Shown piece by piece: positions 9,621-61,503 of a stretch of 64,000 bases of DNA. The notes under the pieces are model-generated. The model was given only the letters and a program-made list of their open reading frames with translations, had not been told where the DNA came from and ran no database searches. Positions within the stretch are counted from its first letter, which is position 1. Every line of letters begins with the position of its first letter. Origin of the DNA: Shigella phage Sf17. The translations under genes and the position numbers were made by a program. The stretch lies in the sequence record MF327004; one strand, written 5' to 3'.

Positions 9621-10211
9621 TTAAGCCATAGTCTTAAGCATGTTTTTAAGTTTTTTGAGATTCATTGTCTCATCCAACTTAAATCCAAATCCATTGACGT
9701 ACTCAATGAAATCAGATTTCTTACTCAGAGATAACGCATAGTTCATGTCGAAGTCATTACTTGGAGTGGACTCTGGAGAGGTGTTCACATCGAAAGAAAT
9801 CTCTGTGGAAGTATCTTCAGACTCTCTGAGGTTATCAATCACAACACATGTGTAGTTTGCTGGAGAGAATGATGTTGAACCAGCTACATAACTGTATTTA
9901 GCATTGTGGATAAGATTTGAGAATACTTTGAAGAATGTTTCTGAATCATGACACACCAGTTTAAATTCACTATTAGCACCTAAAGCCATAAGTGAATATG
10001 GGCTTTCACCATCAATGTTATAATCTGGGTTCATTGACTGAACAGTAACACGCATCAAGTTATTTGCAATTGTTTTCTGTTTAAATGAATTAGGTACGTA
10101 GTGCATACCTCTTTCACATTGATTGACCAACTCTTTAAGAAGGTCATCAGAATATGGTGAAGTGATTGATACAGACCCATCACCATTATAATTAAAACTC
10201 ACGTTTAACAT
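9621..10211 (-). CDS. hypothetical protein (196 aa)
   Basis: ORF in minus-strand block. Confidence 0.5.
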   Translation of the reverse strand: MLNVSFNYNGDGSVSITSPYSDDLLKELVNQCERGMHYVPNSFKQKTIANNLMRVTVQSMNPDYNIDGESPYSLMALGANSEFKLVCHDSETFFKVFSNLIHNAKYSYVAGSTSFSPANYTCVVIDNLRESEDTSTEISFDVNTSPESTPSNDFDMNYALSLSKKSDFIEYVNGFGFKLDETMNLKKLKNMLKTMA

Positions 10212-10438
10212 TTATCAGTTCTCCTACGATTGATAATCTTGCTGCAATAGAGAAATGAAGCAAATTCACTGGAAGAAACCATTAGAACCTGTTCACTAGA
10301 TTGAGCTATTGCTCTGAAATACATACCAGTTAGTGCATCATAGTGCTTATTCTTTCCAATTGAAGTGATATACCCATGACTCTTTGCAGTTTGGTATAAA
10401 TCAATAATATCTGTGATTTCTAGTTGGGAGCTACACAT
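10205..10438 (-). CDS. hypothetical protein (77 aa)
   Basis: First ORF of minus-strand block, facing a divergent intergenic region. Confidence 0.4.
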   Translation of the reverse strand: MCSSQLEITDIIDLYQTAKSHGYITSIGKNKHYDALTGMYFRAIAQSSEQVLMVSSSEFASFLYCSKIINRRRTDKC

Positions 10439-11276: not shown

Positions 11277-12692
11277 ATGAGCGAATTATTTAAGCACTCG
11301 CATTTACATGCAGGTTTAACTGAAAATGGTGCTGTTAACCACACCTCTTCAATGTCTGCACTGGTAGATTTCTACAAAGCTGCTGGTTCAAGCAGAACAA
11401 ATGTAGAGGTTCTTCCAAACTTGTTTTACAAGGCAATGCGAGAAGATATTGATGTAGCAGTTCGAATCCTGTTACATATGCGAGATGCACGAGAAGGTAT
11501 GGGTGAGCGTAAAGCGTTCCGTTATACTCTTACTAAAGCAATCTCTGACGGGATTCTTGATGAGTTCCAAGTATTACGTATCATGGACAAGATTTCTGAT
11601 TTAGGTCGTTATGATGACTTTAAAATCTTTGTTGGTACACGTTACGAAACAGATGCTTTCAAGCATTTAGAATCGGCACTGTTAGACCCTGCAACATCGG
11701 CTCTGGCAGCAAAATGGTTACCACGAGTAAAATCACGACACATGCGTTTTGTTCGTCGTTTCTGTAAGTTTGCAAATCTTTCAGAGAAGCAGTATCGAGT
11801 TCTTCTGTCAGCACTGTCTGACACTGTTGAACAAAAGATTTCAGCAAATGAGTTCGGAGAGATTGATTACAGCAAGCTTCCTTCACTGGCTGCTGCACGT
11901 TATCAAAAACTCTTCAGTCGTAAAGATGGTGAGCGTTATGCAGCATACATTGCAGCACTGACTAAAGGTGAGACAAAGATTAATGCTGGTGCAGTCTACC
12001 CTTATGACATTACAAAGTCAGTCGGTTATGGTAATGCAACCGTTGCAAATGAGCAGTGGAAAGCTTTACCAAACTGGATGAAAGAGGGTGAGAACATTCT
12101 GTGCATGGCAGATGTATCTTCATCTATGACTTGGGAGCGACATGGTTCTGTTACAGCGCTAGACATTGGTGTATCTTTAGCCCTGTACGTTTCAGAACGT
12201 AATACAGGTTGCTTTAAAGATGAATTGATGGTTTACTCTAGCAGACCTCACTTCATCACATTGAGTGGTGATTTACAGACTCGCTTACGTCAAGTGAAGA
12301 GTCATGTAGAGTATGGTTCAACTGACCTACAAGCTGCTTTTGCAAGAATCCTTGAGATTGGTGTTAAAAACAACTTGACTCAGAAAGAGATGCCTAGTAA
12401 GCTTATCATCTTCTCTGATATGCAGTTTAATCAGGTTGATGGAGCAGATGGTCGTACTAACTTTGAAGCAATTCAAGAAAAGTACAAGAAAGCTGGATAT
12501 GAGATGCCACAACTGGTATTCTGGTACTTAGCAAACCGTAACGGTACTTGCGAAGTGTCTGTAAAGGATAACGGTGTAGCGATGGTATCTGGTTTCTCTC
12601 CAGCCACTTTAAAAGCTTTGCTTGGTGGTGAGAAGTTTGACCCTATCAGCGTAATGCTCAAAGCAGTAATGGTTGAACGCTACGATTGGTAA
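11277..12692 (+). CDS. von Willebrand factor A (vWA) domain protein with MIDAS motif; N-terminal ~270 aa unassigned (possibly TROVE/Ro60-like, unverified)
   Basis: DxSxS motif in CMADVSSSMTWERHG followed by vWA-like alternation of hydrophobic strands; 471-aa ORF. Confidence 0.55.
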   Translation: MSELFKHSHLHAGLTENGAVNHTSSMSALVDFYKAAGSSRTNVEVLPNLFYKAMREDIDVAVRILLHMRDAREGMGERKAFRYTLTKAISDGILDEFQVLRIMDKISDLGRYDDFKIFVGTRYETDAFKHLESALLDPATSALAAKWLPRVKSRHMRFVRRFCKFANLSEKQYRVLLSALSDTVEQKISANEFGEIDYSKLPSLAAARYQKLFSRKDGERYAAYIAALTKGETKINAGAVYPYDITKSVGYGNATVANEQWKALPNWMKEGENILCMADVSSSMTWERHGSVTALDIGVSLALYVSERNTGCFKDELMVYSSRPHFITLSGDLQTRLRQVKSHVEYGSTDLQAAFARILEIGVKNNLTQKEMPSKLIIFSDMQFNQVDGADGRTNFEAIQEKYKKAGYEMPQLVFWYLANRNGTCEVSVKDNGVAMVSGFSPATLKALLGGEKFDPISVMLKAVMVERYDW

Positions 12693-12710
12693 AAAGTTTT
12701 AAAAAGGGTA

Positions 12711-12739
12711 TTGACAAAGTGTTTAATACCCTTTAATAT
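12711..12739 (+). promoter_or_regulatory. putative sigma70-like promoter embedded in a hairpin
   Basis: TTGACA 12711-12716, 17-bp spacer, TAATAT 12734-12739; flanked by inverted repeat AAGGGTATT/AATACCCTT. Confidence 0.45.
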
Positions 12740-12800
12740 GTTCTACATAGAAACGAAAAAGAAGTTTTCTGAAATAAATCAAATTATTTTAAAAAACCTC

Positions 12801-12830
12801 TTGACAGACACTAAAAAATAGTGTTATAGT
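12801..12830 (+). promoter_or_regulatory. putative sigma70-like promoter for the tRNA array
   Basis: TTGACA 12801-12806, 18-bp spacer, TATAGT 12825-12830, about 28 nt before first tRNA. Confidence 0.5.
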
Positions 12831-12857
12831 TGTTACATAGGTTGTTAAAAAGATTAT

Positions 12858-12937
12858 CTCCGTTTAGCTCAGTTTGGTTTAGCAGCACTTGCTTTGGGAG
12901 CAAGGGGTCGAAGGTTCAAATCCTTCAACGGAGACCA
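12858..12937 (+). tRNA. tRNA-Pro (anticodon TGG)
   Basis: Manual fold: acceptor CTCCGTT/AACGGAG, anticodon loop tt-TGG-ga, T-arm GAAGGTTCAAATCCTTC, encoded CCA. Confidence 0.55.
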
Positions 12938-12944
12938 AATTATA

Positions 12945-13020
12945 TTCCCGTAGACAAATTAGGTAAAGTCAACACCCTTTCAAGGTGTGGTTTGAGGGTT
13001 CAAGTCCCTTCGGGAATGCC
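12945..13020 (+). tRNA. tRNA-Glu (anticodon TTC)
   Basis: Acceptor ATTCCCG/CGGGAAT, anticodon stem ACACC/GGTGT with loop ct-TTC-aa, T-loop TTCAAGT, CCA. Confidence 0.6.
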
Positions 13021-13027
13021 AGTTTTG

Positions 13028-13100
13028 ACAGAAGACCAATTACAGCAAACAAACTTTTCAATTTCGCGCATAGAAATCCAAAAAAGATTTGGTCTGGTCA
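13028..13100 (+). repeat. structured repeat element R1 (candidate small RNA, not a tRNA)
   Basis: Conserved 5-prime cAGAAGACCaaTTACAGCAAACA and 3-prime tttGGTCTGGTca ends that can pair (AGACCAA/TTGGTCT); AT-rich interior. Confidence 0.45.
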
Positions 13101-13108
13101 TTAAGAAT

Positions 13109-13185
13109 TGCGGGTATAGAGAAAGGGTGTCTCACATGTCTCATTAGCATGTTATCGGTAGGTTCGACTCCTACACCCGCCTCCA
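13109..13185 (+). tRNA. tRNA-Met (anticodon CAT)
   Basis: Acceptor with 6 bp plus terminal mismatch, anticodon loop ct-CAT-ta, T-arm GTAGGTTCGACTCCTAC, CCA. Confidence 0.45.
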
Positions 13186-13190
13186 AATTT

Positions 13191-13260
13191 ACAGAAGGCC
13201 GTTTACAGCAAACACTTAAAATTTTTTATAGGCAAAAAATGAAAAGATACGGTCTGGTAA
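13191..13260 (+). repeat. structured repeat element R2
   Basis: Same conserved ends as R1 (cagaaGGCCGTttacagcaaaca ... atACGGTCTGGTaat). Confidence 0.45.
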
Positions 13261-13269
13261 TACTAACAT

Positions 13270-13346
13270 GGTTAGGAAGCACATAAGGCATGTGCGGTCG
13301 GCTGTTAACCGAATGGTACAGGGTTCGAATCCCTGACTAACCGCCA
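13270..13346 (+). tRNA. tRNA-Asn (anticodon GTT), unusual D-arm
   Basis: Anticodon loop ct-GTT-aa, T-arm CAGGGTTCGAATCCCTG, acceptor ACTAACC-G-CCA; D-region forms 5-bp hairpin GCACAtaaggcaTGTGC. Confidence 0.45.
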
Positions 13347-13410
13347 AGATTTGGGAGAGAAGCGATTGCTCACCGATTTGTAAGGTGCAAGTCCTTAGCC
13401 TGAATAGAAT
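13347..13410 (+). other. tRNA-like fragment (T-arm-like AAGGTGCAAGTCCTT without acceptor or CCA)
   Basis: Contains T-arm-like hairpin but no complementary acceptor strands were found. Confidence 0.25.
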
Positions 13411-13415
13411 AAAAT

Positions 13416-13503
13416 GCGTCGTTATCCCGTAGATGGAAGCGGTGGTGACTGTAAATCACTTGTCATTATGACTCGGGAGGTTCGACTCCTTCACGGCGCA
13501 CCA
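13416..13503 (+). tRNA. tRNA-Tyr (anticodon GTA), long variable arm
   Basis: Acceptor GCGTCGT/ACGGCGC, anticodon loop ct-GTA-aa, extra arm, T-arm GGAGGTTCGACTCCTTC, CCA. Confidence 0.5.
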
Positions 13504-13509
13504 AATAAA

Positions 13510-13586
13510 GGTTATGTAGTTTAACTGGTCAAAATACCTCCCTGTCACGGAGGATGATGAGGGTTCGAATCCCTTCGTAACCGCCA
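13510..13586 (+). tRNA. tRNA-Asp (anticodon GTC)
   Basis: Acceptor GGTTATG/CGTAACC, anticodon stem CCTCC/GGAGG with loop ct-GTC-ac, T-arm GAGGGTTCGAATCCCTT, CCA. Confidence 0.55.
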
Positions 13587-13616
13587 AATTTGAGAGGGCT
13601 TTTTAGCCCCTCCCTT

Positions 13617-13648
13617 AAAGAGTTCTTACGAGTATTCTTTAAAGGAGC
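13617..13648 (+). repeat. palindromic spacer element cttaaagaGTTCTTACGAGtattctttaaagg
   Basis: Related copies at 14541-14570 and 16778-16805. Confidence 0.4.
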
Positions 13649-13724
13649 AGAAGACCAAATACAGCAAGCAATTTTAATATTTCAAGCCAATTTAATTTGA
13701 AAAATTTAAAACTTGGTCTGGTTC
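13647..13724 (+). repeat. structured repeat element R3
   Basis: gcAGAAGACCAAatacagcaagca ... acttGGTCTGGTtcc. Confidence 0.45.
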
Positions 13725-13734
13725 CAACAATTTT

Positions 13735-13865
13735 ACAGAAGACCGTTTACAGCAAACAATAAACAATCTATTTCTCTGGTAAAGAAAAGGCGAAGGTTCG
13801 ATTCCTTCACACGTTACGGCGTGTTGGTGTAATGGAAGCACTTAAGATAAATACGGTCTGGTAAT
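13735..13865 (+). repeat. structured repeat element R4 (long variant containing a tRNA T-arm-like hairpin GAAGGTTCGATTCCTTC)
   Basis: Same conserved ends (cagaAGACCGTttacagcaaaca ... atACGGTCTGGTaat); ~110-nt interior includes a perfect T-arm mimic and hairpin ACACGttacggCGTGT. Confidence 0.45.
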
Positions 13866-13868
13866 CCT

Positions 13869-14001
13869 CTTTGCAGTGACTTATGGAGCTAACCAGTCGT
13901 CCCATGAGTGCCGAAGAGTCTCTTGAGCATGATTCTAGATTAGCTTACTAAGAGATGACTCTACAAACCCTTTAGCAAGGTTTGCGTAGGTTACTGCAAA
14001 G
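13869..14001 (+). ncRNA. candidate structured small RNA S1 (closed by 9-bp helix CTTTGCAGT/ACTGCAAAG)
   Basis: Terminal 9-bp inverted repeat about 115 nt apart plus internal hairpins (GAGTCTCTT...AAGAGAtGACTC; CAAACCctttagcaaGGTTTG); no ORF, no tRNA fold. Confidence 0.35.
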
Positions 14002-14011
14002 ATGATTTAAT

Positions 14012-14087
14012 GGAAGTGTAGCAGAATGGTGATGCGGCAGACTTTTAATCTGACAGGCGACGGGTTCGAATCCCTCCACTTCTACCA
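14012..14087 (+). tRNA. tRNA-Lys (anticodon TTT)
   Basis: Acceptor GGAAGTG/CACTTCT, anticodon loop ct-TTT-aa, T-loop TTCGAAT, CCA. Confidence 0.5.
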
Positions 14088-14092
14088 AATTC

Positions 14093-14159
14093 GCCCCTTA
14101 ACTGAAGAACACATGCGCGGCTGGAAACACCCACTCAATCATTTCTCTACAAAGGGGCA
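14093..14159 (+). other. hairpin-bounded spacer element (GCCCCTT ... AAGGGGC, ~55-nt interior)
   Basis: 7-bp inverted repeat enclosing a non-tRNA sequence. Confidence 0.3.
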
Positions 14160-14168
14160 ACTTATAAT

Positions 14169-14245
14169 GGTTCAGTCGCAGATAAGGTAATGCAAGGGTT
14201 TCATAAGCCCTATGAATGTGGGTTCGATTCCCACCTGAACCTCCA
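14169..14245 (+). tRNA. tRNA with anticodon CAT (Met, initiator or Ile2-type)
   Basis: Acceptor GGTTCAG/CTGAACC, anticodon loop tt-CAT-aa, T-arm GTGGGTTCGATTCCCAC, CCA. Confidence 0.55.
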
Positions 14246-14247
14246 AT

Positions 14248-14323
14248 GCTGGTATAGTTAAGAAGGTTATAACACTCCCCTGATAAGGGAATATCGGTGG
14301 TTCGATTCCACCTACCAGTACCA
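14248..14323 (+). tRNA. tRNA-Ile (anticodon GAT)
   Basis: Acceptor GCTGGTA/TACCAGT, anticodon loop ct-GAT-aa, T-arm GGTGGTTCGATTCCACC, CCA. Confidence 0.6.
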
Positions 14324-14337
14324 AATTTCATAAAGTT

Positions 14338-14367
14338 GTTGACATTAAGATGTGACCACTTTAAGAT
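14338..14367 (+). promoter_or_regulatory. putative internal sigma70-like promoter within the tRNA array
   Basis: TTGACA 14338-14343, 18-bp spacer, TAAGAT 14362-14367. Confidence 0.4.
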
Positions 14368-14571
14368 AACCTTAGTTTTCGTTAGCGTAGCGTCTATTTT
14401 AAAAACTTAAAAATAAATGCAAACGATAATGTTTTTCTGGCAGTAGCTTAATAGGCTAAACACCAGCAGGGTATTCCAACCCCCTGTTAAAGAATTTGGC
14501 GTACTAGCCCACGGTATGATTAATAAAGTGGGCATCTTTAAGGGTTTTCTAAGAGAGCCTTTAAAGATAAT

Positions 14572-14648
14572 GCACCCTTAGTTCAAACGGATAGAGCAAC
14601 GGTCTTCTAAACCGTCAGTTACAGGTTCGAATCCTGTAGGGTGTGCCA
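14572..14648 (+). tRNA. tRNA-Arg (anticodon TCT)
   Basis: Acceptor GCACCCT/AGGGTGT, D-arm TAGTTCAAACGGATAGAGC, anticodon loop ct-TCT-aa, T-arm CAGGTTCGAATCCTG, CCA. Confidence 0.6.
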
Positions 14649-14656
14649 ATTTTAAT

Positions 14657-14777
14657 GGTCAAGACAACACGAGTAAGTTATCTTGGATACGCGTTAAGAG
14701 ATAAACGAAAGTCGGATAGTTGCTGAAGGGTAGCTCCCTTTAATAGTAAGTAGGTTCGACTCCTACCTTGACTGCCA
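14657..14777 (+). other. tRNA-like element with T-arm and 3-prime CCA but ambiguous body (too long or missing anticodon arm)
   Basis: 3-prime GTAGGTTCGACTCCTAC-CTTGACT-G-CCA; candidate 5-prime acceptor at 14657 gives ~120 nt, at 14710 gives ~68 nt. Confidence 0.3.
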
Positions 14778-14942
14778 ATTAGTTAGCAGATTACTATGAC
14801 GACCTTTATGGGTCTCCGCATTGACTTGAAAGAGTCAATCTCATAAGGAGGTGGTCTGTATCTCATGTTTTCCAGAACATGTAAATAATCTGAGAAGAAG
14901 CTTGACAGTGTTGAGATAACAGGGTAAGCTTCGAAATATAGT

Positions 14943-15025
14943 ATGGGACGATGTTAAGACACTAAGGCATGTGCGTAAGCCTCCAAAACTTACTCAAAGG
15001 GGTTCGAATCCTCCGTCCCATGCCA
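14943..15025 (+). tRNA. tRNA, probably Trp (anticodon CCA) with mismatched closing pair
   Basis: Acceptor ATGGGAC/GTCCCAT, anticodon region GTAAGc-ctCCAaa-aCTTAC, T-loop TTCGAAT, CCA; D-region hairpin like the Asn tRNA. Confidence 0.4.
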
Positions 15026-15038
15026 AAGTCTTATTAGG

Positions 15039-15126
15039 GGTAGGTAGCGGCTAATGGAAGCCAAACTGTCTTGAAAACAGTTGCCATTGTAGAGATACGG
15101 TGAGGGTTCGACTCCTTTATCTACCG
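15039..15126 (+). tRNA. tRNA-Ser (anticodon TGA), long variable arm, no encoded CCA
   Basis: Acceptor GGTAGGT/ATCTACC, anticodon stem ACTGT/ACAGT loop ct-TGA-aa, long extra arm, T-loop TTCGACT. Confidence 0.55.
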
Positions 15127-15381
15127 CCTAATAAGATTTAAAGCTGAGACTATTTGTTCGAGCAAGTGTTTCAGGTTTCCTCTTCGTGTATTGGCGTACA
15201 CGGCACTGGTAAAGCACCTAGTAGGTGTCACGGAGAAGAGATAGTATCAAGCTCTCCAAAGGTTCTAGTCACCGGATTAAGCAAGACTATGCAAAGGCCA
15301 ATAGGTCTTTTTAGAGAATTGTTAAGGCATTTGATACCATTGTTGCTTTGGCGTCTTAGCAGTTCTCTACAAAGATTTAAT

Positions 15382-15458
15382 GCACCTATAGCCCAATTGG
15401 AAGAGGCAGCAGACTTAGAATCTGCTCAGTGTGAGTTCGAATCTCTCTAGGTGTACCA
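15382..15458 (+). tRNA. tRNA with anticodon TAG (Leu-type anticodon; short variable arm in manual fold)
   Basis: Acceptor GCACCTA/TAGGTGT, anticodon stem GCAGA/TCTGC loop ct-TAG-aa, T-loop TTCGAAT, CCA; 77 nt. Confidence 0.4.
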
Positions 15459-15465
15459 AATTAAT

Positions 15466-15541
15466 GCAGGTGTAGCAAAATGGTTATGCGGCTGACTCTT
15501 AATCAGTAAGACGATGGGTTCAATTCCCTCCACCTGTACCA
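15466..15541 (+). tRNA. tRNA, tentatively Lys (anticodon CTT)
   Basis: Acceptor GCAGGTG/CACCTGT, anticodon loop ct-CTT-aa, T-loop TTCAATT, CCA. Confidence 0.4.
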
Positions 15542-15547
15542 AACAAT

Positions 15548-15623
15548 GGGGATGTAGTTTACATGGTTAAAACATAAGTTTTGCAAACTTAAGTACAGGG
15601 TTCAATTCCCTGCTTCTCCACCA
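15548..15623 (+). tRNA. tRNA-Ala (anticodon TGC)
   Basis: Anticodon stem TAAGT/ACTTA loop tt-TGC-aa, T-arm CAGGGTTCAATTCCCTG, CCA. Confidence 0.55.
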
Positions 15624-15629
15624 ATTAGT

Positions 15630-15704
15630 GCATCCATAGTTTAAATGGGAAAATTACAGTCTTCCAAACTGAGGTTGAGGGTTCGATTCCCTCTGGATGC
15701 TCCA
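15630..15704 (+). tRNA. tRNA-Gly (anticodon TCC)
   Basis: Acceptor GCATCCA/TGGATGC, anticodon loop ct-TCC-aa, T-arm GAGGGTTCGATTCCCTC, CCA. Confidence 0.6.
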
Positions 15705-15710
15705 AATAAT

Positions 15711-15787
15711 GCTGCTTTCGTATAATTGGCTATTGCACATCCCTTGTAAGGATGGAGATGCAGGTTCGAGTCCTGTGAGCAGCACCA
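15711..15787 (+). tRNA. tRNA-Thr (anticodon TGT)
   Basis: Acceptor GCTGCTT/GAGCAGC, anticodon stem CATCC/GGATG loop ct-TGT-aa, T-loop TTCGAGT, CCA. Confidence 0.6.
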
Positions 15788-15792
15788 ATTTT

Positions 15793-15885
15793 GAGGTCAA
15801 GTGAAAGACCGCTTGAGTCAACTGAAGACCGTAACAAATTCCACGGAGTTGAGTTAGCGGCACAGCTTCAGACCTCTTCAAAGCT
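15793..15885 (+). ncRNA. candidate structured element S3 (nested inverted repeats GAGGTC...GACCTC and CTGAAG...CTTCAG)
   Basis: Non-tRNA spacer with nested helices; contains GAAGACCG word shared with R elements. Confidence 0.3.
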
Positions 15886-15892
15886 CGCTTAG

Positions 15893-15967
15893 TTTATATG
15901 GTAAAGCCCCATCCTTACAAGTTGGTGAAGAAGGTTCAAGTCCTTCAGCGAGTACCAAGTTCCAGTA
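15893..15967 (+). tRNA. tRNA-Val (anticodon TAC)
   Basis: Acceptor GCTCGCT/AGCGAGT, anticodon loop ct-TAC-aa, T-arm GAAGGTTCAAGTCCTTC, CCA. Confidence 0.55.
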
Positions 15968-15968
15968 T

Positions 15969-16046
15969 CCCAATTGGCAGAGGATGCAAGCTCAAACCTT
16001 GTATTAGTGACGGTTCGAATCCGTCTTGGAACACCAATTTTAGGAG
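15969..16046 (+). tRNA. tRNA with anticodon CAA (Leu-type anticodon; short variable arm in manual fold)
   Basis: Acceptor GTTCCAG/TTGGAAC, anticodon stem GCAAG/CTTGT loop ct-CAA-ac, T-arm GACGGTTCGAATCCGTC, CCA. Confidence 0.4.
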
Positions 16047-16052
16047 ATTCCT

Positions 16053-16265
16053 ATGAAGCCTTATGGTAGACATGGTAAAGTTGAAATTGCAAGTTGTGGC
16101 TGCTGTGCAGCACATGATGGTGAAGAAGATTATTACAAATGGCGTACAGACCATCGTAAACGCTTTCTCAGAAGAGATAAGAAGAGAGCTAGACAGGAAT
16201 CTCAAAAGGATATTGCAGAATTAGTTCAAATGGACAGAGCAGCAACCTACGAAGTTGTTAGTTAG
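16053..16265 (+). CDS. possible small basic protein (70 aa) whose 3-prime third overlaps tRNA-Arg; may be spurious
   Basis: AGGAGA ribosome-binding site 6 nt upstream of ATG; last ~17 codons lie inside tRNA-Arg(ACG). Confidence 0.25.
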   Translation: MKPYGRHGKVEIASCGCCAAHDGEEDYYKWRTDHRKRFLRRDKKRARQESQKDIAELVQMDRAATYEVVS

Positions 16266-16291
16266 GGGTTCGAATCCTCTATTCTGCACCA
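16215..16291 (+). tRNA. tRNA-Arg (anticodon ACG)
   Basis: Acceptor GCAGAAT/ATTCTGC, anticodon stem GCAAC/GTTGT loop ct-ACG-aa, T-loop TTCGAAT, CCA. Confidence 0.55.
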
Positions 16292-16309
16292 AATTTAATA
16301 GGTAACATT

Positions 16310-16537
16310 ATGTATAAACTCATAGTTGAAAAACATAAAGATGACCACAAGATTGAAACAGGTAGATTTGGAGATACTTTCTTTATAGCGGTTGGTTGGC
16401 AATGTGACCCGTTAGAAGTTAGAAAGATTGTTTATAACTTTGCTGGATTAGAACTTAAGCAAGCTATCTTCGAAACATCACTACCTGAAAATAAGGATAC
16501 TTGCAATAACGCATATATTCTTTCAAGAGTTCGTTAG
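16310..16537 (+). CDS. possible small protein (75 aa) between tRNA genes
   Basis: ORF fills the gap between two tRNAs; weak ribosome-binding site. Confidence 0.3.
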   Translation: MYKLIVEKHKDDHKIETGRFGDTFFIAVGWQCDPLEVRKIVYNFAGLELKQAIFETSLPENKDTCNNAYILSRVR

Positions 16538-16611
16538 GGGATTAGTTTACAAGGTTAAAACCTCGGTCTTTGAAATCGAAGAAGATGGTTCAATTCCATC
16601 ATCCCCCGCCA
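16536..16611 (+). tRNA. tRNA-Gln (anticodon TTG)
   Basis: Anticodon stem TCGGT/ATCGA loop ct-TTG-aa, T-arm GATGGTTCAATTCCATC, CCA; first acceptor pair mismatched. Confidence 0.5.
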
Positions 16612-16613
16612 AT

Positions 16614-16692
16614 GCTCCATTACTCCAATTGGCAGAGAGGCCAGATTTAAAATCTGTGTTATGTATCGGTTCGAATCCGATATGGAGTACCA
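16614..16692 (+). tRNA. tRNA with anticodon TAA (Leu-type anticodon; short variable arm in manual fold)
   Basis: Acceptor GCTCCAT/ATGGAGT, anticodon stem CCAGA/TCTGT loop tt-TAA-aa, T-arm ATCGGTTCGAATCCGAT, CCA. Confidence 0.4.
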
Positions 16693-16698
16693 AATATT

Positions 16699-16774
16699 AG
16701 CAGTATAGCATAACTGGCAATGCTCCAGCCTCTGAAGCTGAAAGATTAAGGTTCAAATCCTTATACTGCTGCCA
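16699..16774 (+). tRNA. tRNA-Gln (anticodon CTG)
   Basis: Acceptor AGCAGTA/TACTGCT, D-arm GCATaactggcaaTGC, anticodon loop ct-CTG-aa, T-arm TAAGGTTCAAATCCTTA, CCA. Confidence 0.55.
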
Positions 16775-16805
16775 CTTCTAAGGGTTCTTACGAGAGTCCT
16801 TAAAT

Positions 16806-16882
16806 GTGGCCTTATCATAAATGGATAATGACCCATGCTGTGAACATGGTCTATACGGGTTCGATTCCCGTAGGTCACCCCA
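16806..16882 (+). tRNA. tRNA-His (anticodon GTG)
   Basis: Acceptor GTGGCCT/AGGTCAC, anticodon stem CCATG/CATGG loop ct-GTG-aa, T-arm ACGGGTTCGATTCCCGT, CCA. Confidence 0.6.
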
Positions 16883-16888
16883 ATTTAA

Positions 16889-16966
16889 TAGCTCAATTAG
16901 CTTATATGGTTAAAGCGCGTGTCTGAAAAACATGAGAACAGGGTTCAAATCCCGATGGGCTACCAA
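16889..16966 (+). tRNA. tRNA, tentatively Phe (anticodon GAA); imperfect T-stem
   Basis: Acceptor TAGCTCA/TGGGCTA, D-stem GCTT/AAGC, anticodon loop ct-GAA-aa, T-loop TTCAAAT. Confidence 0.4.
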
Positions 16967-16981
16967 CTTTATAGGTGCATA

Positions 16982-17716
16982 ATGAAAGAGATGACAGAAC
17001 AAAGTAAAGAGATTTTTAATCTCCTTAAAGCTGGTAATGGTTTCTCAAACCCTCTTATTACTGGTGCAGCAGTTCTTGGTGGTACTATAGCTGCCTCTCA
17101 ATCATTAGTTAACTCAATTAGTTCTGTAACAGACCCAGCTACACAACAGATTTTAGTTGCTGCTGGACTGACAACAGCCTTATTAGGAAGCTTCACAACA
17201 AGCCTTGGAAGTACAACTTCAACGACAAGTACACTTACTGAGTATGGACAAAAGTCTGTAGATGAGTTTTCACAACGTATGCAAGTAGCCAAAGGTTACT
17301 CTAACGTTATGGGAGCAGCAGGTGAACAGGTTGGATGTACACCATTTAGCGGTATCATGGGCGTAGCTACCGAGTACGGTAATAAAGCGATGGATTTGAT
17401 TAATACCTCCATAGACGCTGTAAATGGCGTTCTAAGCGATTTGCAAGATGCAATCGACCAAGGACTAGATACAATCTCTGAACTCGCTACACAGGCCGTT
17501 ACAGCAATTAATGAGGGTATTGCAAAGATTACTGCATATGCTAATGAAGTAACTCAGATGATTGCAGATGAAGCAGCACTGATTGCAGAATACCTGAAAA
17601 CAAATATTAATGGTTTCCTTGCGAATGTTCTACCAAGCTGGTTTGATGATTCATGTAAAACTGGTGTGATTGATACTATCGCAACTCCAGAGATGAAAGA
17701 AGCTCTGAACAAATAA
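16982..17716 (+). CDS. hypothetical Ala/Thr/Ser-rich protein embedded in the tRNA array (start trimmed from 16919)
   Basis: ORF-track start at 16919 is a GTG inside the preceding tRNA; first ATG clear of the tRNA is 16982. Confidence 0.45.
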   Translation: MKEMTEQSKEIFNLLKAGNGFSNPLITGAAVLGGTIAASQSLVNSISSVTDPATQQILVAAGLTTALLGSFTTSLGSTTSTTSTLTEYGQKSVDEFSQRMQVAKGYSNVMGAAGEQVGCTPFSGIMGVATEYGNKAMDLINTSIDAVNGVLSDLQDAIDQGLDTISELATQAVTAINEGIAKITAYANEVTQMIADEAALIAEYLKTNINGFLANVLPSWFDDSCKTGVIDTIATPEMKEALNK

Positions 17717-17717
17717 T

Positions 17718-17810
17718 GGAAGATTAACCCTAAAAGGTAAGGGAGCAGTTTGCTAAACTGCCAGTAACCGAGAAATCGGCGTACCAGTTCAAGTCTGGTA
17801 TCTTCCTCCA
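17718..17810 (+). tRNA. tRNA-Ser (anticodon GCT), long variable arm
   Basis: Acceptor GGAAGAT/ATCTTCC, anticodon stem GCAGT/ACTGC loop tt-GCT-aa, extra arm, T-arm ACCAGTTCAAGTCTGGT, CCA. Confidence 0.6.
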
Positions 17811-17816
17811 AATTAT

Positions 17817-17892
17817 GTGTCGGTGTCAGAAATGGTTATGTGCCTGTCTGCAAAACAGGTTTATGAGGGTTCGAGTCCCTTCCGATACTCCA
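17817..17892 (+). tRNA. tRNA-Cys (anticodon GCA)
   Basis: Acceptor GTGTCGG/CCGATAC, anticodon stem CCTGT/ACAGG loop ct-GCA-aa, T-arm GAGGGTTCGAGTCCCTT, CCA. Confidence 0.6.
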
Positions 17893-17924
17893 ATTTATAT
17901 TAATATCTCTCTCAAAGTTATTAT

Positions 17925-17984
17925 GCCCTGCTATGAGTATTCTCCCTTTCGCTACCGGAGAGTATTTTTAGACAGGGCTTTTTT
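17925..17984 (+). terminator. rho-independent terminator closing the tRNA array
   Basis: Long hairpin GCCCTG...CAGGGC with inner stem, followed by TTTTTT. Confidence 0.6.
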
Positions 17985-18049
17985 ATAGAGTTATACTTTA
18001 TAGGAAGACCTATACAGTATGTCTCTGGCATACATTGTGGTTTCTCCTT

Positions 18050-18073
18050 GACGGTCTCTGCACCGTCTTTTTT
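18050..18073 (+). terminator. second rho-independent terminator before late operon
   Basis: GACGGT-ctctgc-ACCGTC followed by TTTTTT. Confidence 0.5.
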
Positions 18074-60748: not shown

Positions 60749-61503
60749 TGTTTAATTCCAGAGAATCCGTAAGAAATTGGAATCTACGTTGTGGCAATAA
60801 TCCAAAAGAACCATACAGCACAGAGTATTGGGAATCACTGAAAAGCCAATCTCTGTGTATGCTTGAAGAAGCTAGAGAGTTAGTCGCAGCAGTAGAAGCC
60901 AAAGACCCTGTTGAGACCCTTGATGCTCAAGCTGATTTGCAGTATGTACTTGATGGTTTAATTTTCCTGACACAACATGACCATGATGGTGCTATCAAGG
61001 CTGTTTGTGAAAACAACAACCTCAAATACACAGACGACTATCAAGAAGCTCTACAGCGAATGTTTGATATTGAGAAACGTACTGGTGATGAATGTTACCT
61101 GCGTCAATCAATCATCGAAGGTAAAGAGTGGTTTGCGATTATTCGCAAGTCTGATGGTAAGATTATGAAACAGTCTAATCTTCCAAAAGTTCAACTTGAA
61201 AGTTTTATTGCAGAAGTTGACGCAAAAGAATTATTTGTGGTAACATCTGACACATGCGTTATCTGCCAAGGACTGATTGGAAGTCTTGGTAGTCTTGGCA
61301 TTAAAAACTTTTCTAAAGTTGAACCAATCTCTTCAAAAGCAGATAAAGATTTCTGCCGTGAGAATGGATTATGGCTTGCGGATATTGTGTACTATGATGG
61401 TGAGAAGTTCCATGTAACCTCATATCCGAAATTGAATTATGATGCAATCAACCTCAAGCAGTGGTTGAAAGGAGTCGGTTATAATGGATTCACAGAACAT
61501 TAA
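60748..61503 (+). CDS. putative MazG-like NTP pyrophosphohydrolase domain fused to C-terminal CxxC redoxin-like domain
   Basis: N-terminal LEEARELVAAVEAKDPVETLDAQADLQYVLDGLIFL resembles MazG helices; C-terminal FVVTSDTCVICQGL has CxxC; just upstream of nrdA. Confidence 0.4.
   Translation: MFNSRESVRNWNLRCGNNPKEPYSTEYWESLKSQSLCMLEEARELVAAVEAKDPVETLDAQADLQYVLDGLIFLTQHDHDGAIKAVCENNNLKYTDDYQEALQRMFDIEKRTGDECYLRQSIIEGKEWFAIIRKSDGKIMKQSNLPKVQLESFIAEVDAKELFVVTSDTCVICQGLIGSLGSLGIKNFSKVEPISSKADKDFCRENGLWLADIVYYDGEKFHVTSYPKLNYDAINLKQWLKGVGYNGFTEH

What the first reader, a model, noticed from the sequence alone, without database searches (positions are those of the whole stretch)
13869..14159. Additional non-tRNA structured RNA candidates in the array
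The segment 13869-14001 is closed by a 9-bp helix (CTTTGCAGT/ACTGCAAAG) around internal hairpins, and 14093-14159 is closed by GCCCCTT/AAGGGGC. A third element at 15793-15885 has nested inverted repeats. These are sized like the small stable RNAs of unknown function found in some phage tRNA clusters.
Basis: seen in the sequence. Interest (0 to 1): 0.5.

Follow-up and report, generated by a model that had tools for sequence, protein, structure and literature searches.

The report
Ro-linked small RNAs in phage tRNA array
The three flagged spacers in this Felix-O1-like phage tRNA array are conserved, folded, non-tRNA RNA candidates lying just downstream of a phage Ro60-like protein gene, next to an unannotated hairpin-RNA family that accompanies such genes in many phages and resembles the "Class I" RNAs of social amoebae.

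Summary
The window is a Mooglevirus (Ounavirinae) with 26 tRNAs on the + strand.

- **Element 1 (13866-14004):** real structured RNA. Its 15-bp closing helix and a hairpin with the loop CUUUAGCAA both keep pairing through compensatory changes in relatives.
- **Element 2 (14093-14158):** hairpin with an invariant 18-nt core. It recurs in tRNA arrays of three phage subfamilies, its stems covary, and it is present or absent between close relatives.
- **Element 3 (15793-15876):** at least 95% conserved but invariant, so its fold is unproven.

**Context:** the ORF just upstream (11277-12692) models as a Ro60-like ring plus vWA domain. Four further spacers (Y1-Y4) share one design: a terminal stem AG-N5/N5'-CUG plus the motif UUACAGCAA. 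Y4 also holds a YrlA-like permuted tRNA domain. The same module sits beside Ro-like genes in distant phages and matches Rfam's Dictyostelium Class I RNA below threshold.

**Best reading:** these RNAs are cut out of the tRNA transcript, and element 1 and Y1-Y4 are Y-RNA-like partners of the phage Ro-like protein. Expression and binding are untested.

The parts
11277..12692 (+). Ro60-like protein gene (471 aa; DUF2828 + DUF7788; PHROG 850 'RNA-binding protein'), immediately upstream of the tRNA array
   Evidence: Pfam and PHROG hits. AF2 model with pLDDT 88. The top 7 PDB Foldseek hits are all Ro60/Rsr, TM 0.50-0.64. Mycobacteriophage homologues are annotated 'Ro-like RNA binding protein'.
12711..12830 (+). 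Two sigma-70-like promoter matches (12711-12739 and 12801-12830) upstream of the first tRNA; likely start of the polycistronic tRNA/ncRNA transcript
   Evidence: Consensus scan gives TTGACA-18-TATAGT (11 of 12, with TG) and TTGACA-17-TAATAT. The next + strand terminator-like sites are at 18017 and 18050. These are consensus matches only.
13026..13100 (+). Y1: hairpin RNA with lower stem UGAC/GUCA, loop AGA/G, upper stem AGACCAA/UUGGUCU and motif UUACAGCAA
   Evidence: Pattern scan. CM R2, built from distant phages only: 23.3 bits, E 4e-4. Rfam Class I RNA 21.3 bits, below threshold.
13189..13260 (+). Y2: same module (UUAC/GUAA; AGGCCGU/ACGGUCU)
   Evidence: R2 29.6 bits, E 5e-6. Rfam Class I RNA 22.2 bits.
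13645..13724 (+). Y3: same module (GAGC/GUUC; AGACCAA/UUGGUCU; AUACAGCAA)
   Evidence: R2 25.4 bits, E 9e-5.
13733..13864 (+). Y4: same terminal module enclosing a permuted tRNA-like domain, in the order V hairpin, T arm GAAGGUUCGAUUCCUUC, closed acceptor-like stem CACG/CGUG, D arm GGUGUAAUGGAAGCAC. This is YrlA-like architecture.
   Evidence: 97.5% of cells paired, 12 pairs with compensatory change, 0 of 500 shuffles reach this. Rfam tRNA 28.8 bits on the 3' part and Class I RNA 17.6 bits. YrlA architecture is taken from PMC4201824.
13866..14004 (+). Element 1 of the finding, a multi-helix RNA. P1 is 13869-13883 with 13987-14001. P3 is 13915-13962, with conserved apical AUUCUAGAUU. P4 is 13964-13969 with 13979-13984, with loop CUUUAGCAA at 13970-13978.
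   Evidence: z -3.9. CM R1 finds divergent homologues at the same array position. P1 is 98% paired with 10 of 15 pairs compensatory; P4 is 100% paired with 4 of 6 compensatory. P4 is a miniature AG...CUG plus CUU(A/U)AGCAA module in relatives.
14093..14158 (+). Element 2 of the finding, a hairpin. P1 is 14093-14099 with 14152-14158. P2 is 14104-14110 with 14142-14147. The invariant core GCGGCUGGAAACACCCAC is at 14117-14134.
   Evidence: z -3.5. Present or absent between Lys and Met tRNAs in relatives. 57 phage records in Ounavirinae, Vequintavirinae and Stephanstirmvirinae. All 14 variants fold alike with compensatory changes in P1 and P2.
15793..15876 (+). Element 3 of the finding: an 84-nt interrupted hairpin in the Thr-Val spacer carrying three AGACC motifs (AAAGACCGC, GAAGACCGU, CAGACCUC)
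   Evidence: z -3.2. The spacer is 94-99 nt in all Moogle-, Susp- and Felixounavirus loci. 95-100% identical with no compensatory change. No U-tract follows it.

Best explanation
The flagged segments are genes for small non-tRNA RNAs carried as passengers in a phage tRNA operon.

**Steps that are shown**
- They lie on the tRNA strand, between tRNAs, downstream of strong promoter-like sites. No terminator-like site follows on that strand until about 18017-18050.
- Elements 1 and 2 keep their helices through compensatory changes in relatives.
- The gene just upstream models as a Ro60-like HEAT ring plus vWA domain.
- The array holds four copies of a hairpin module: stem AG-N5/N5'-CUG followed by UUACAGCAA. 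The same module sits next to Ro-like genes, on the same strand, in very distant phages.
- One copy (Y4) encloses a YrlA-type permuted tRNA domain.
- Element 1 carries a miniature copy of the module in its P4 hairpin. Its counterpart in one relative (L095) is enclosed by a canonical module stem.

**Steps that are inferred**
- The RNAs are released when RNase P and the 3' tRNA-processing nucleases cut the flanking tRNAs. Their closed terminal helices then protect them.
- Y1-Y4 and element 1 bind the phage Ro-like protein through the stem-plus-motif, as Y RNAs bind Ro60.
- Their variable apical parts tether or gate other factors, such as host exoribonucleases or tRNA-handling enzymes. Candidates are the tRNA-like domain in Y4 and the conserved loops CUUUAGCAA and AUUCUAGAUU in element 1.
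- In this way the RNP would tune RNA decay or quality control, or counter a host defence.

**The other two elements**
- Element 2 is a separate, tRNA-sized minihelix-like RNA. Its invariant 18-nt apical core is most likely a recognition site for a protein or RNA that is not yet known.
- Element 3 is a conserved long hairpin. It is either a degenerate double copy of the module or a processing site.
For: - **Identity and layout:** the window is a Mooglevirus. The array has 26 tRNAs with fixed 'slots' for the elements in 13 relatives.
- **Ro-like protein:**
- **Conserved gene-array linkage:** in relatives with 40-62% protein identity the gene is followed by same-strand tRNAs.
- **Module near Ro-like genes:** 60 pattern hits in 75 distant loci against a mean of 6.9 in 20 shuffles. 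55 of 60 are on the gene's strand and most lie within about 650 nt of it.
- **Independent model test:** a CM built only from distant phages hits exactly Y1-Y3, plus the 5' part of Y4, in the 64-kb window at E 5e-6 to 0.03. It gives 30 same-strand hits in loci not used to train it.
- **Tandem copies in unrelated phages:** next to the Ro-like gene in a Listeria phage and in a mycobacteriophage. One mycobacteriophage copy has a tRNA-like domain.
- **Y4 covariation:**
- **Element 1:**
- **Element 2:**
- **Strand:** G.U-type non-Watson-Crick pairs outnumber A.C-type 12 to 4.
- **Prior art:** a preprint on Felixounavirus Bas63 reports that the orthologous gp130 resembles Ro60, sits upstream of the tRNAs and counters the Ppl defence, and it speculates that some 'tRNAs' are Y RNAs (PMC11482910). 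Phage Ro60 plus Y-like RNAs are documented for mycobacteriophages and for Thermus phage phiLo, which forms a complex with host PNPase (PMC4201824, PMC12135203).
Against: - There are no expression, end-mapping or binding data, so a stable product and Ro-like binding are both inferred.
- Elements 1-3 are not detected by the family model R2. Element 1's membership rests on a variant motif and on one hybrid homologue (L095) that I read by eye.
- The YrlA sequence motif GNCGAAN0-1G is absent, and the Rfam YrlA model does not hit any of the elements.
- Element 2 also occurs in three Vequintavirinae loci (L099, L103, L104) with no Ro-like gene within about 6-10 kb. It is also dispensable in close relatives. 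It may therefore have nothing to do with Ro.
- Element 3 shows no covariation.
- The sequences used to describe the module were picked by a pattern that demands pairing, so the 100% pairing is circular.
- The alignment behind one search was fitted to the model, and it includes one reverse-strand row.
Confidence: 0.6

Rival explanations
1. The segments are decayed tRNA genes or plain processed spacers. They were left by gain and loss of tRNA units, make no stable product and have no function of their own.
For: - The spacers are tRNA-sized 'slots' (about 80-95 nt, against about 6 nt between adjacent tRNAs), and element 2 is present or absent between close relatives.
- In three lineages element 2 ends with ACCA or ACCC after its 6-7 bp closing stem, like an acceptor end.
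- Y4 scores 28.8 bits against the tRNA model.
Against: - Compensatory substitutions maintain non-tRNA helices in elements 1 and 2.
- An 18-nt core of element 2 is invariant across three phage subfamilies, while the surrounding stems change.
- Element 3 is more conserved (95-100%) than the array as a whole (about 85%).
- None of the three has a T loop or cloverleaf.
Confidence: 0.1
2. The elements act at the DNA level. They could be miniature mobile elements, homing-endonuclease targets or footprints, or recombination sites that shuffle tRNA units, with the inverted repeats serving as DNA hairpins or terminal repeats.
For: - Arrays of relatives carry HNH or PD-(D/E)XK endonuclease genes at varying positions.
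- Element 2 is an indel polymorphism and has spread across phage subfamilies.
Against: - No target-site duplication is visible at the filled versus empty site.
- The helices use G.U wobbles that would be A.C mismatches on the other strand.
- The elements are always on the tRNA strand.
- The internal conserved loops are not palindromic ends.
Confidence: 0.08
3. The hairpins are only cis-acting processing signals, such as RNase III or RNase E entry sites, that help separate tRNAs in the polycistronic precursor. This applies especially to element 3, an 84-nt interrupted duplex.
For: - Element 3 is a long imperfect duplex with internal loops, no covariation and no motif match.
- It sits between two tRNAs inside one transcription unit.
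Against: - Most tRNAs in the array are separated by about 6 nt and need no such signal.
- Related phages lack element 3 altogether, with Thr-Val gaps of 6 or 35 nt.
- Elements 1 and 2 have conserved single-stranded loops that a duplex-recognising nuclease would not require.
Confidence: 0.15
4. The segments encode small proteins, as some deposited annotations of relatives imply.
For: Short ORFs overlap the elements, and ESh20 and other records annotate 'hypothetical proteins' across them.
Against: - Variation consists of paired compensatory changes and 1-2 nt indels.
- No ORF is conserved across relatives.
- The annotated ORFs are mostly on the opposite strand and overlap tRNAs.
Confidence: 0.02

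Closest known systems
Bacterial and phage Y RNAs of the YrlA type (Rfam RF02553; Chen et al. 2014, PMC4201824)
   Same: They are encoded within a few kb of, and on the same strand as, a Ro60-type gene. A 5'/3' terminal stem carries a conserved motif next to its 5' strand. One RNA per locus (here Y4; also in L095, L096 and the mycobacteriophage Moostard) encloses V, T, closed-acceptor and D stem-loops. Several paralogues with different apical modules occur per genome.
   Different: The protein is DUF2828/DUF7788, related to Ro60 by fold only, with about 10-13% identity. The motif is (U)UACAGCAA with AG...CUG, not GNCGAAN0-1G. The Rfam YrlA model gives no hit on the window elements. The RNAs are interleaved with 26 tRNAs. 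Elements 1-3 lack the tRNA-like domain.
Dictyostelium Class I RNAs (Rfam RF01414; Kjellin et al. 2021, PMC7919456)
   Same: For Y1-Y4 and their phage relatives: about 55-70 nt, low G+C, a short terminal stem whose invariant 5' G pairs with the C of a 3' CUG(U), the motif (C)UUACAGCAA directly after the 5' strand, and a variable interior. The Rfam model aligns full length (1-56) to exactly these elements. The P4 loop of element 1 (CUUUAGCAA, CUUAAGCAA or CCUUAGCAA) is a shortened form of the motif.
   Different: Scores are 17-29 bits against a gathering score of 41.5. The elements are phage-encoded and operon-embedded rather than DUSE-promoted nuclear genes. The only proven Class I binder is the RRM protein Rnp1A. 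Whether Dictyostelia have a DUF2828 protein was not tested. Elements 1-3 themselves give no hit.
Stable non-tRNA RNAs of the T4 tRNA cluster (species 1 and 2 RNAs, rnaC/rnaD; from my own knowledge)
   Same: Small structured RNAs of unknown function that are co-transcribed with phage tRNAs and excised by tRNA-processing enzymes.
   Different: No sequence comparison was made here. T4 is not among the phages in which I found the Ro-like gene (one search lists other Straboviridae such as Aeh1).
Thermus phage phiLo Ro60 with Yrl1/Yrl2 (PMC12135203)
   Same: A phage Ro60-type ring protein with adjacent stem-bulge-stem RNAs that bind it. The RNP engages host PNPase, which gives a precedent for the proposed mechanism.
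   Different: phiLo has a TROVE-type Ro60 and a CGAA-motif RNA located upstream of the gene, with no tRNA array.

Membership tests
YrlA / bacterial Y RNA | Encoded near (within about 4 kb) and on the same strand as a Ro60 orthologue | tested here: met
   Elements 1, 2 and 3 start 1.2, 1.4 and 3.1 kb downstream of ORF 11277-12692, on the same strand. The ORF is Ro60-like by fold but is not a Pfam TROVE protein.
YrlA / bacterial Y RNA | Terminal stem with a GNCGAAN0-1G motif on the 5' strand; match to Rfam RF02553 | tested here: not met
   No RF02553 hit on any element at E <= 10. The motif found instead is AG-N5-UUACAGCAA.
YrlA / bacterial Y RNA | tRNA-like domain with V, T, closed acceptor (AS) and D stem-loops | tested here: not met
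   Absent from elements 1-3. It is present, with covariation, in the neighbouring Y4 (13733-13864).
YrlA / bacterial Y RNA | Binds Ro60 | not testable with these tools
   Needs immunoprecipitation or gel-shift assays with the 471-aa protein.
Dictyostelium Class I RNA (RF01414) | About 60 nt, a terminal stem with 5' G paired to the C of 3' CUGU, and the 11-nt motif CCUUACAGCAA next to the 5' strand | tested here: inconclusive
   Met in form by Y1-Y3 and by distant-phage copies. For the flagged elements, only P4 of element 1 has a shortened version. Elements 2 and 3 have none.
Dictyostelium Class I RNA (RF01414) | Infernal score at or above Rfam's gathering score of 41.5 | tested here: not met
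   Best scores are 22.2 bits in the window (Y2) and 29.1 bits in L091. There are no hits on elements 1-3.
Phage Ro-like-associated hairpin module (defined here, model R2) | Stem AG-N5/N5'-CU(G) directly followed by WWNCAGCAA; hit by CM R2 | tested here: not met
   In the window R2 hits Y1-Y3, the 5' part of Y4 and one weak site inside the Ro-like ORF (11858-11889, E 0.26). It does not hit elements 1-3. Element 1 retains AG-UGACU...GGUUA-CU-G and a mini-module in P4, and its L095 counterpart has a canonical stem.
tRNA | Cloverleaf with a T loop; detection by ARAGORN or RF00005 | tested here: not met
   No call in 13866-14004, 14093-14158 or 15793-15876.
Self-cleaving ribozymes known from phage tRNA arrays (hammerhead, HDV-like) | Match to the Rfam ribozyme models | tested here: not met
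   No such hit at E <= 10 over 12600-18000. Element 2 contains CUGAAGA and GAAAC, but the segment that would have to form hammerhead stem III has no G at all (read directly).
Intrinsic terminator | G+C-rich hairpin followed by a U tract | tested here: not met
   The scan reports no + strand terminator-like site at any of the three elements.
T4 species 1/2 stable RNAs | Sequence or structure similarity to rnaC/rnaD | not tested
   No reference sequence was fetched. Only the positional analogy holds.

The most novel reading that the evidence does not exclude
The stem-plus-UUACAGCAA hairpin RNAs (Y1-Y4, and the mini-module in element 1) may be the cognate RNA ligands of the DUF2828 branch of Ro60-like proteins. 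On this reading the RNP is ancient and widespread, found in phages of Proteobacteria, Firmicutes and Actinobacteria. The 'Dictyostelia-specific' Class I RNAs would then be the eukaryotic members of the same RNA family, pointing to a DUF2828-type partner and a Y-RNA-like function for them. Separately, element 2 would be a new cross-family phage RNA with an invariant 18-nt recognition loop.
Probability: 0.3. Interest if true: 0.85.

Novelty: new variant of a known kind. Interest (0 to 1): 0.68.

Why it matters
**Annotation.** Phage tRNA arrays are usually annotated as tRNAs plus junk spacers. Here at least seven tRNA-sized slots hold conserved non-tRNA RNAs, and none of these slots carries an RNA annotation in the relatives' records inspected.

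**A testable hypothesis.** A recent knockout screen suggested that the Felixounavirus Ro60-like protein counters a host defence, and guessed that some 'tRNAs' are Y RNAs. This analysis names concrete candidate RNAs, their boundaries and their recognition motif. The hypothesis can now be tested directly with pull-downs, motif mutants and deletions.

**A wider family.** The module recurs next to Ro-like genes in unrelated phages. That defines an RNA family missing from Rfam and a probable ligand for a large protein family of unknown function (708 phage records, plus plant homologues).

**A link to amoebae.** The match to Dictyostelium Class I RNAs, whose molecular function has been open since 2004, offers a new lead if it proves real.

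**Element 2.** It is a second unannotated RNA, shared by three phage subfamilies.

Tried and rejected
- **Rfam on the elements:** at gathering score over the window and at E <= 10 over 12600-18000, nothing matched elements 1-3.
- **Hammerhead reading of element 2:** rejected. It contains CUGAAGA and GAAAC, but the would-be stem III segment has no G.
- **T-loop or anticodon-arm reading of element 2's core:** no consistent pairing was found.
- **Antisense target in E. coli:** blastn of the element 2 loop against 5,426 E. coli genomes gave no match at E <= 10.
- **Repeat copies as sigma-70 promoters:** I considered TTTACA-17-AACAAT. I rejected it because the flanking stems covary and the copies are co-oriented with Ro-like genes in distant phages.
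- **MAFFT alignments:** those of element 1 and of the hairpin family misplaced the 3' strands. For the hairpin family I used interior-trimmed sequences of equal length. For element 1 I used a CM-guided alignment.
- **R1 did not recover the L095 homologue.** That link rests on reading.
- **Missing sources:** I could not obtain Avesson 2011, which lists the four Class I RNA-binding proteins, or the Chen 2014 supplement.
- **Dictyostelia and DUF2828:** I could not determine whether Dictyostelia encode a DUF2828 protein. Literature searches found nothing.
- **Sequence-only search of the protein against PDB:** no significant hits. Only the fold search was decisive.
Full report
**What the window is.** The region is nearly identical to Shigella phages Sf13 and ESh20 (Mooglevirus, Ounavirinae, the Felix O1 group). 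ARAGORN finds 26 tRNAs, all on the + strand, between 12858 and 17892. Rfam confirms them and reports nothing else at gathering score. Most neighbouring tRNAs are about 6 nt apart. A few spacers are 69-95 nt or several hundred nt long, and these lengths are kept in 13 relatives from three genera. Strong sigma-70-like matches lie just upstream of the first tRNA (12711-12739 and 12801-12830). The next terminator-like sites on that strand are at 18017 and 18050. The spacers are therefore almost certainly transcribed together with the tRNAs, although this is inferred.

**Checking the observation.**
- The closing helix of the first is really 15 bp long (13869-13883 with 13987-14001). It includes G.U pairs that would be mismatches on the other strand.
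- The third element ends at 15876, not 15885.
- On the + strand the three segments fold with z-scores of -3.9, -3.5 and -3.2 against dinucleotide shuffles.
- None is a tRNA or any Rfam family.

**Element 1 (13866-14004).**
- Close copies (86-100% identical) occur in 58 phage records.
- A covariance model built from nine of them (R1) also finds divergent versions at the same array position, directly upstream of tRNA-Lys(UUU). These are in other Felixounaviruses (39-46 bits), in an uncultured relative L094 (25.6 bits) and in Yersinia phage P778 (L096, 31.8 bits).
- On the model-guided alignment the 15-bp closing helix is 98% paired, with compensatory changes at 10 of 15 pairs. Hairpin P4 is 100% paired, with 4 of 6 pairs compensatory. 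The apical part of P3 is 94% paired. The outer part of P3 is not conserved, at 69% paired.
- Caveats: that alignment was fitted to the model and contains one stray reverse-strand row. An unguided RNAalifold run on a MAFFT alignment nevertheless recovers the lower part of P1 and P4 with compensatory pairs.
- Two loops are conserved while their stems change: AUUCUAGAUU, and CUUUAGCAA / CUUAAGCAA / CCUUAGCAA.

**Element 2 (14093-14158).**
- Between tRNA-Lys and tRNA-Met, relatives have either a 78-81 nt spacer holding this element or a 4-6 nt spacer without it.
- The 18-nt core GCGGCUGGAAACACCCAC is invariant in every copy found. That includes copies in tRNA arrays of Vequintavirinae (ABPH49, KE23, BIS47-like), Stephanstirmvirinae (phi1_175008) and Yersinia phage P778, 57 phage records in all, none annotated as RNA.
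- All 14 distinct variants fold into the same P1-P2-core hairpin, and both stems show compensatory changes. Examples are GCCCCUU/AAGGGGC, ACCCU/AGGGU and GCCUCU/AGAGGC for P1, and GAAGAAC/GUUCUUC against GAAGAAU/AUUCUUC for P2.
- In three lineages the closing stem is followed by ACCA or ACCC, like a tRNA acceptor end.
- A Ro-like gene lies nearby in the Stephanstirmvirinae locus L105 and the similar uncultured locus L097. None lies within about 6-10 kb in the three Vequintavirinae loci.
- No complementary sequence exists in E. coli genomes.
- Element 2 is thus a real, mobile or dispensable RNA of tRNA size whose function I cannot assign.

**Element 3 (15793-15876).** The Thr-Val spacer is 94-99 nt in all Moogle-, Susp- and Felixounavirus loci. 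It is 95-100% identical among them, which is more conserved than the array overall at about 85%. The few differences are single-sided or unpaired, so covariation cannot test the fold. More distant relatives lack it. It contains AAAGACCGC, GAAGACCGU and CAGACCUC, which echo the AGACC stems described below. This is suggestive only.

**The surroundings change the interpretation.**
- The ORF ending 166 nt before the first tRNA (11277-12692, 471 aa) belongs to DUF2828/DUF7788 and to PHROG 850.
- An AlphaFold model from a 33-sequence alignment has pLDDT 88 and a conserved DxSxS MIDAS motif. Its seven best PDB matches are all Ro60/Rsr, full length, with TM 0.50-0.64.
- Homologues occur in 708 phage records. 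Those in mycobacteriophages are annotated 'Ro-like RNA binding protein'.
- In relatives sharing only 40-62% protein identity, the gene is still followed by same-strand tRNAs.

**A repeated hairpin module.** Four other spacers hold copies of one design: Y1 13026-13100, Y2 13189-13260, Y3 13645-13724 and Y4 13733-13864.
- The design is a 4-5 bp lower stem, an asymmetric loop (AGA against G), a 7-bp upper stem AG-N5/N5'-CU, then UUACAGCAA.
- Both stems covary between copies and between genomes. Apart from one unrelated reverse-strand pattern match at 61118-61280, these are the only such sites in the 64 kb, and all four are on the + strand.
- Y4 additionally encloses a hairpin, a T arm (GAAGGUUCGAUUCCUUC), a closed acceptor-like stem that covaries (CACG/CGUG, CUCG/CGAG, CCCUUC/GAAGGG, GCUCCCA/UGGGAGU) and a D arm. 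That is the order described for YrlA RNAs.
- The Y4 structure is 97.5% paired, with 12 compensatory pairs, and 0 of 500 shuffles reach this.

**The module follows Ro-like genes across phages.**
- A strict pattern for it gives 60 hits in 75 IMG/VR loci that were chosen only for encoding a 39-45%-identical Ro-like protein. Twenty shuffles gave a mean of 6.9. Of the 60 hits, 55 are on the gene's strand and most abut the gene.
- G.U-type exceptions outnumber A.C-type exceptions 12 to 4.
- A covariance model built only from such distant copies (R2) hits Y2, Y3 and Y1 in the window at E 5e-6 to 4e-4, the 5' part of Y4 at E 0.03, and otherwise only one weak site. The interiors of the training sequences were trimmed to equal length, a modelling shortcut.
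- In 63 loci not used for training, apart from L107, R2 gives 30 hits at E <= 0.01, all on the Ro-gene strand.
- Three tandem copies precede the Ro-like gene of Listeria phage LMSP-25. Three follow that of mycobacteriophage Moostard, and the middle one has a tRNA-like domain.
- The 100% pairing is circular, because those sequences were selected for pairing. The independent evidence is the placement, the strand bias, the enrichment over shuffles and the cross-prediction by R2.

**How element 1 fits.**
- R2 does not hit element 1, so it is not a canonical member.
- It does keep the signature at the top of P1 (AG-UGACU...GGUUA-CU-G).
- Its P4 hairpin is a miniature of the module: AG-ACC-CUUUAGCAA-GGU-CU-G in JLBYU32, AG-AC-CUUAAGCAA-GU-CU-G in Ro111lw and AG-UC-...-GA-CU-G in L094. 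In the window it reads AA-ACC...GGU-UU-G, where both pairs changed together.
- In L095 the counterpart, which has the same CUUAAGCAA hairpin, is enclosed by a canonical stem reading AAAG-AAUCU-UUCAGCAU...GAGAUUC. I read this link by eye.

**Comparison with known families.**
- The closest functional analogue is the Y RNA/YrlA system: a Ro60-type protein plus adjacent same-strand stem-motif RNAs, one of which has a tRNA-like domain (PMC4201824). A phage precedent exists in which the RNP engages host PNPase (PMC12135203).
- Membership in YrlA fails on the sequence motif and on the Rfam model.
- Unexpectedly, the only Rfam model that aligns full length to Y1, Y2, Y4 and the distant copies is the Dictyostelium Class I RNA model, at 17-29 bits against a gathering score of 41.5.
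- The published definition of Class I RNAs matches the phage module point for point: about 60 nt, a terminal stem whose invariant 5' G pairs with the C of a 3' CUGU, the motif CCUUACAGCAA next to the 5' strand, and a variable remainder (PMC7919456).
- That paper reports Class I RNAs as unique to Dictyostelia. I found no paper linking them to Ro60 or DUF2828. DUF2828 has plant homologues. Whether Dictyostelia have one was not testable here.

**Prior art and novelty.** A 2024 preprint on Felixounavirus Bas63 noted that gp130 resembles Ro60, lies upstream of the tRNAs and counters the Ppl defence. It guessed that some annotated tRNAs might be Y RNAs (PMC11482910). The candidates identified here are the spacers rather than the tRNAs. 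Their motif, boundaries and cross-phage distribution, and elements 1 and 2 as conserved RNAs, appear not to have been described in the literature I could search.

**Verdict.** Element 3 is conserved but structurally unproven. The mechanism is inferred, not shown: excision by tRNA processing, then action of element 1 and Y1-Y4 as Y-RNA-like partners of the phage Ro-like protein.

Noticed in passing
window 14324-14571 (+), especially about 14418-14456: The Ile-Arg spacer contains GCA AAC GAT AAT GTT TTT CTG GCA GTA GCT TAA TAG, which reads ANDNVFLAVA-stop-stop. This looks like a tmRNA tag reading frame (E. coli: ANDENYALAA). Rfam gives sub-threshold hits to permuted tmRNA (14263-14451, 30.4 bits) and alpha tmRNA (14368-14505). 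ARAGORN calls no tmRNA. The region is conserved even in the Kolesnikvirus locus L003 and in L094, and a TTGACA-17-TAAGAT promoter-like site precedes it at 14339. It may be a phage two-piece or divergent tmRNA.
   Followed up: partly
window 14658-14777 and 14944-15027 (+): Two tRNA-like sequences that ARAGORN does not call. One has the acceptor stem GGTCAAG/CTTGACT, a T arm GTAGGTTCGACTCCTAC, GCCA and a long internal insert (about 120 nt). The other has TGGGACG/CGTCCCA with a T arm and GCCA. Counterparts are visible in L094 and L096.
   Followed up: no
window 13593-13646 and 16780-16804 (+): A hairpin GAGAGGGCTTTTTAGCCCCTCCC is followed by the palindromic TTAAAGAGTTCTTACGAGTATTCTTTAAAGG. The GTTCTTACGAG unit is repeated at 16780-16804 and recurs in L003, L094 and L096. 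It is a conserved short motif inside the array with unknown role, possibly a processing signal.
   Followed up: no
window 11858-11889 (+), inside the Ro-like ORF: Weak match of the hairpin-module model R2 (13.7 bits, E 0.26): AGAGAUUGA-UUACAGCAAGC...UCACUGG. It could be chance, since a 9-mer is expected about 0.5 times per window, or it could be a binding site within the protein's own mRNA.
   Followed up: no
window 16053-16265 (+) against tRNA-Arg 16215-16291: A 70-codon ORF with a Shine-Dalgarno-like AGGAG runs into and overlaps tRNA-Arg(ACG). Relatives annotate the same ORF (for example Moogle gp84 and CHB7 gp87).
   Followed up: no
loci L004 3993-4445, L013 553-909, L011 3726-4067, L094 about 10030-10430: HNH or PD-(D/E)XK endonuclease genes sit at different positions inside the tRNA arrays of relatives. 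In Meda one takes the place of tRNA-Glu. They are probably drivers of the gain and loss of array units.
   Followed up: no
L095 9950-10087: This relative's Y4 counterpart has a 7-bp closed acceptor stem followed by an encoded CCA (GCTCCCA-CCA-ACTA-TGGGAGT). RNase P cleavage could therefore split it into a two-piece RNA with a tRNA-like 3' end, as reported for M. smegmatis YrlA.
   Followed up: partly
L107 (Listeria phage LMSP-25) 2345-7013; L084 9696-10187: In the Listeria phage the Ro-like gene and its three hairpin RNAs lie beside tRNAs, a ribosome-associated-inhibitor-like gene and an RtcB 'tRNA splicing ligase'. This recalls the bacterial rsr-yrlA-rtcBA operon. IMG/VR locus L084 has a full tmRNA (85.5 bits) 2.3 kb downstream of its Ro-like gene.
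   Followed up: no
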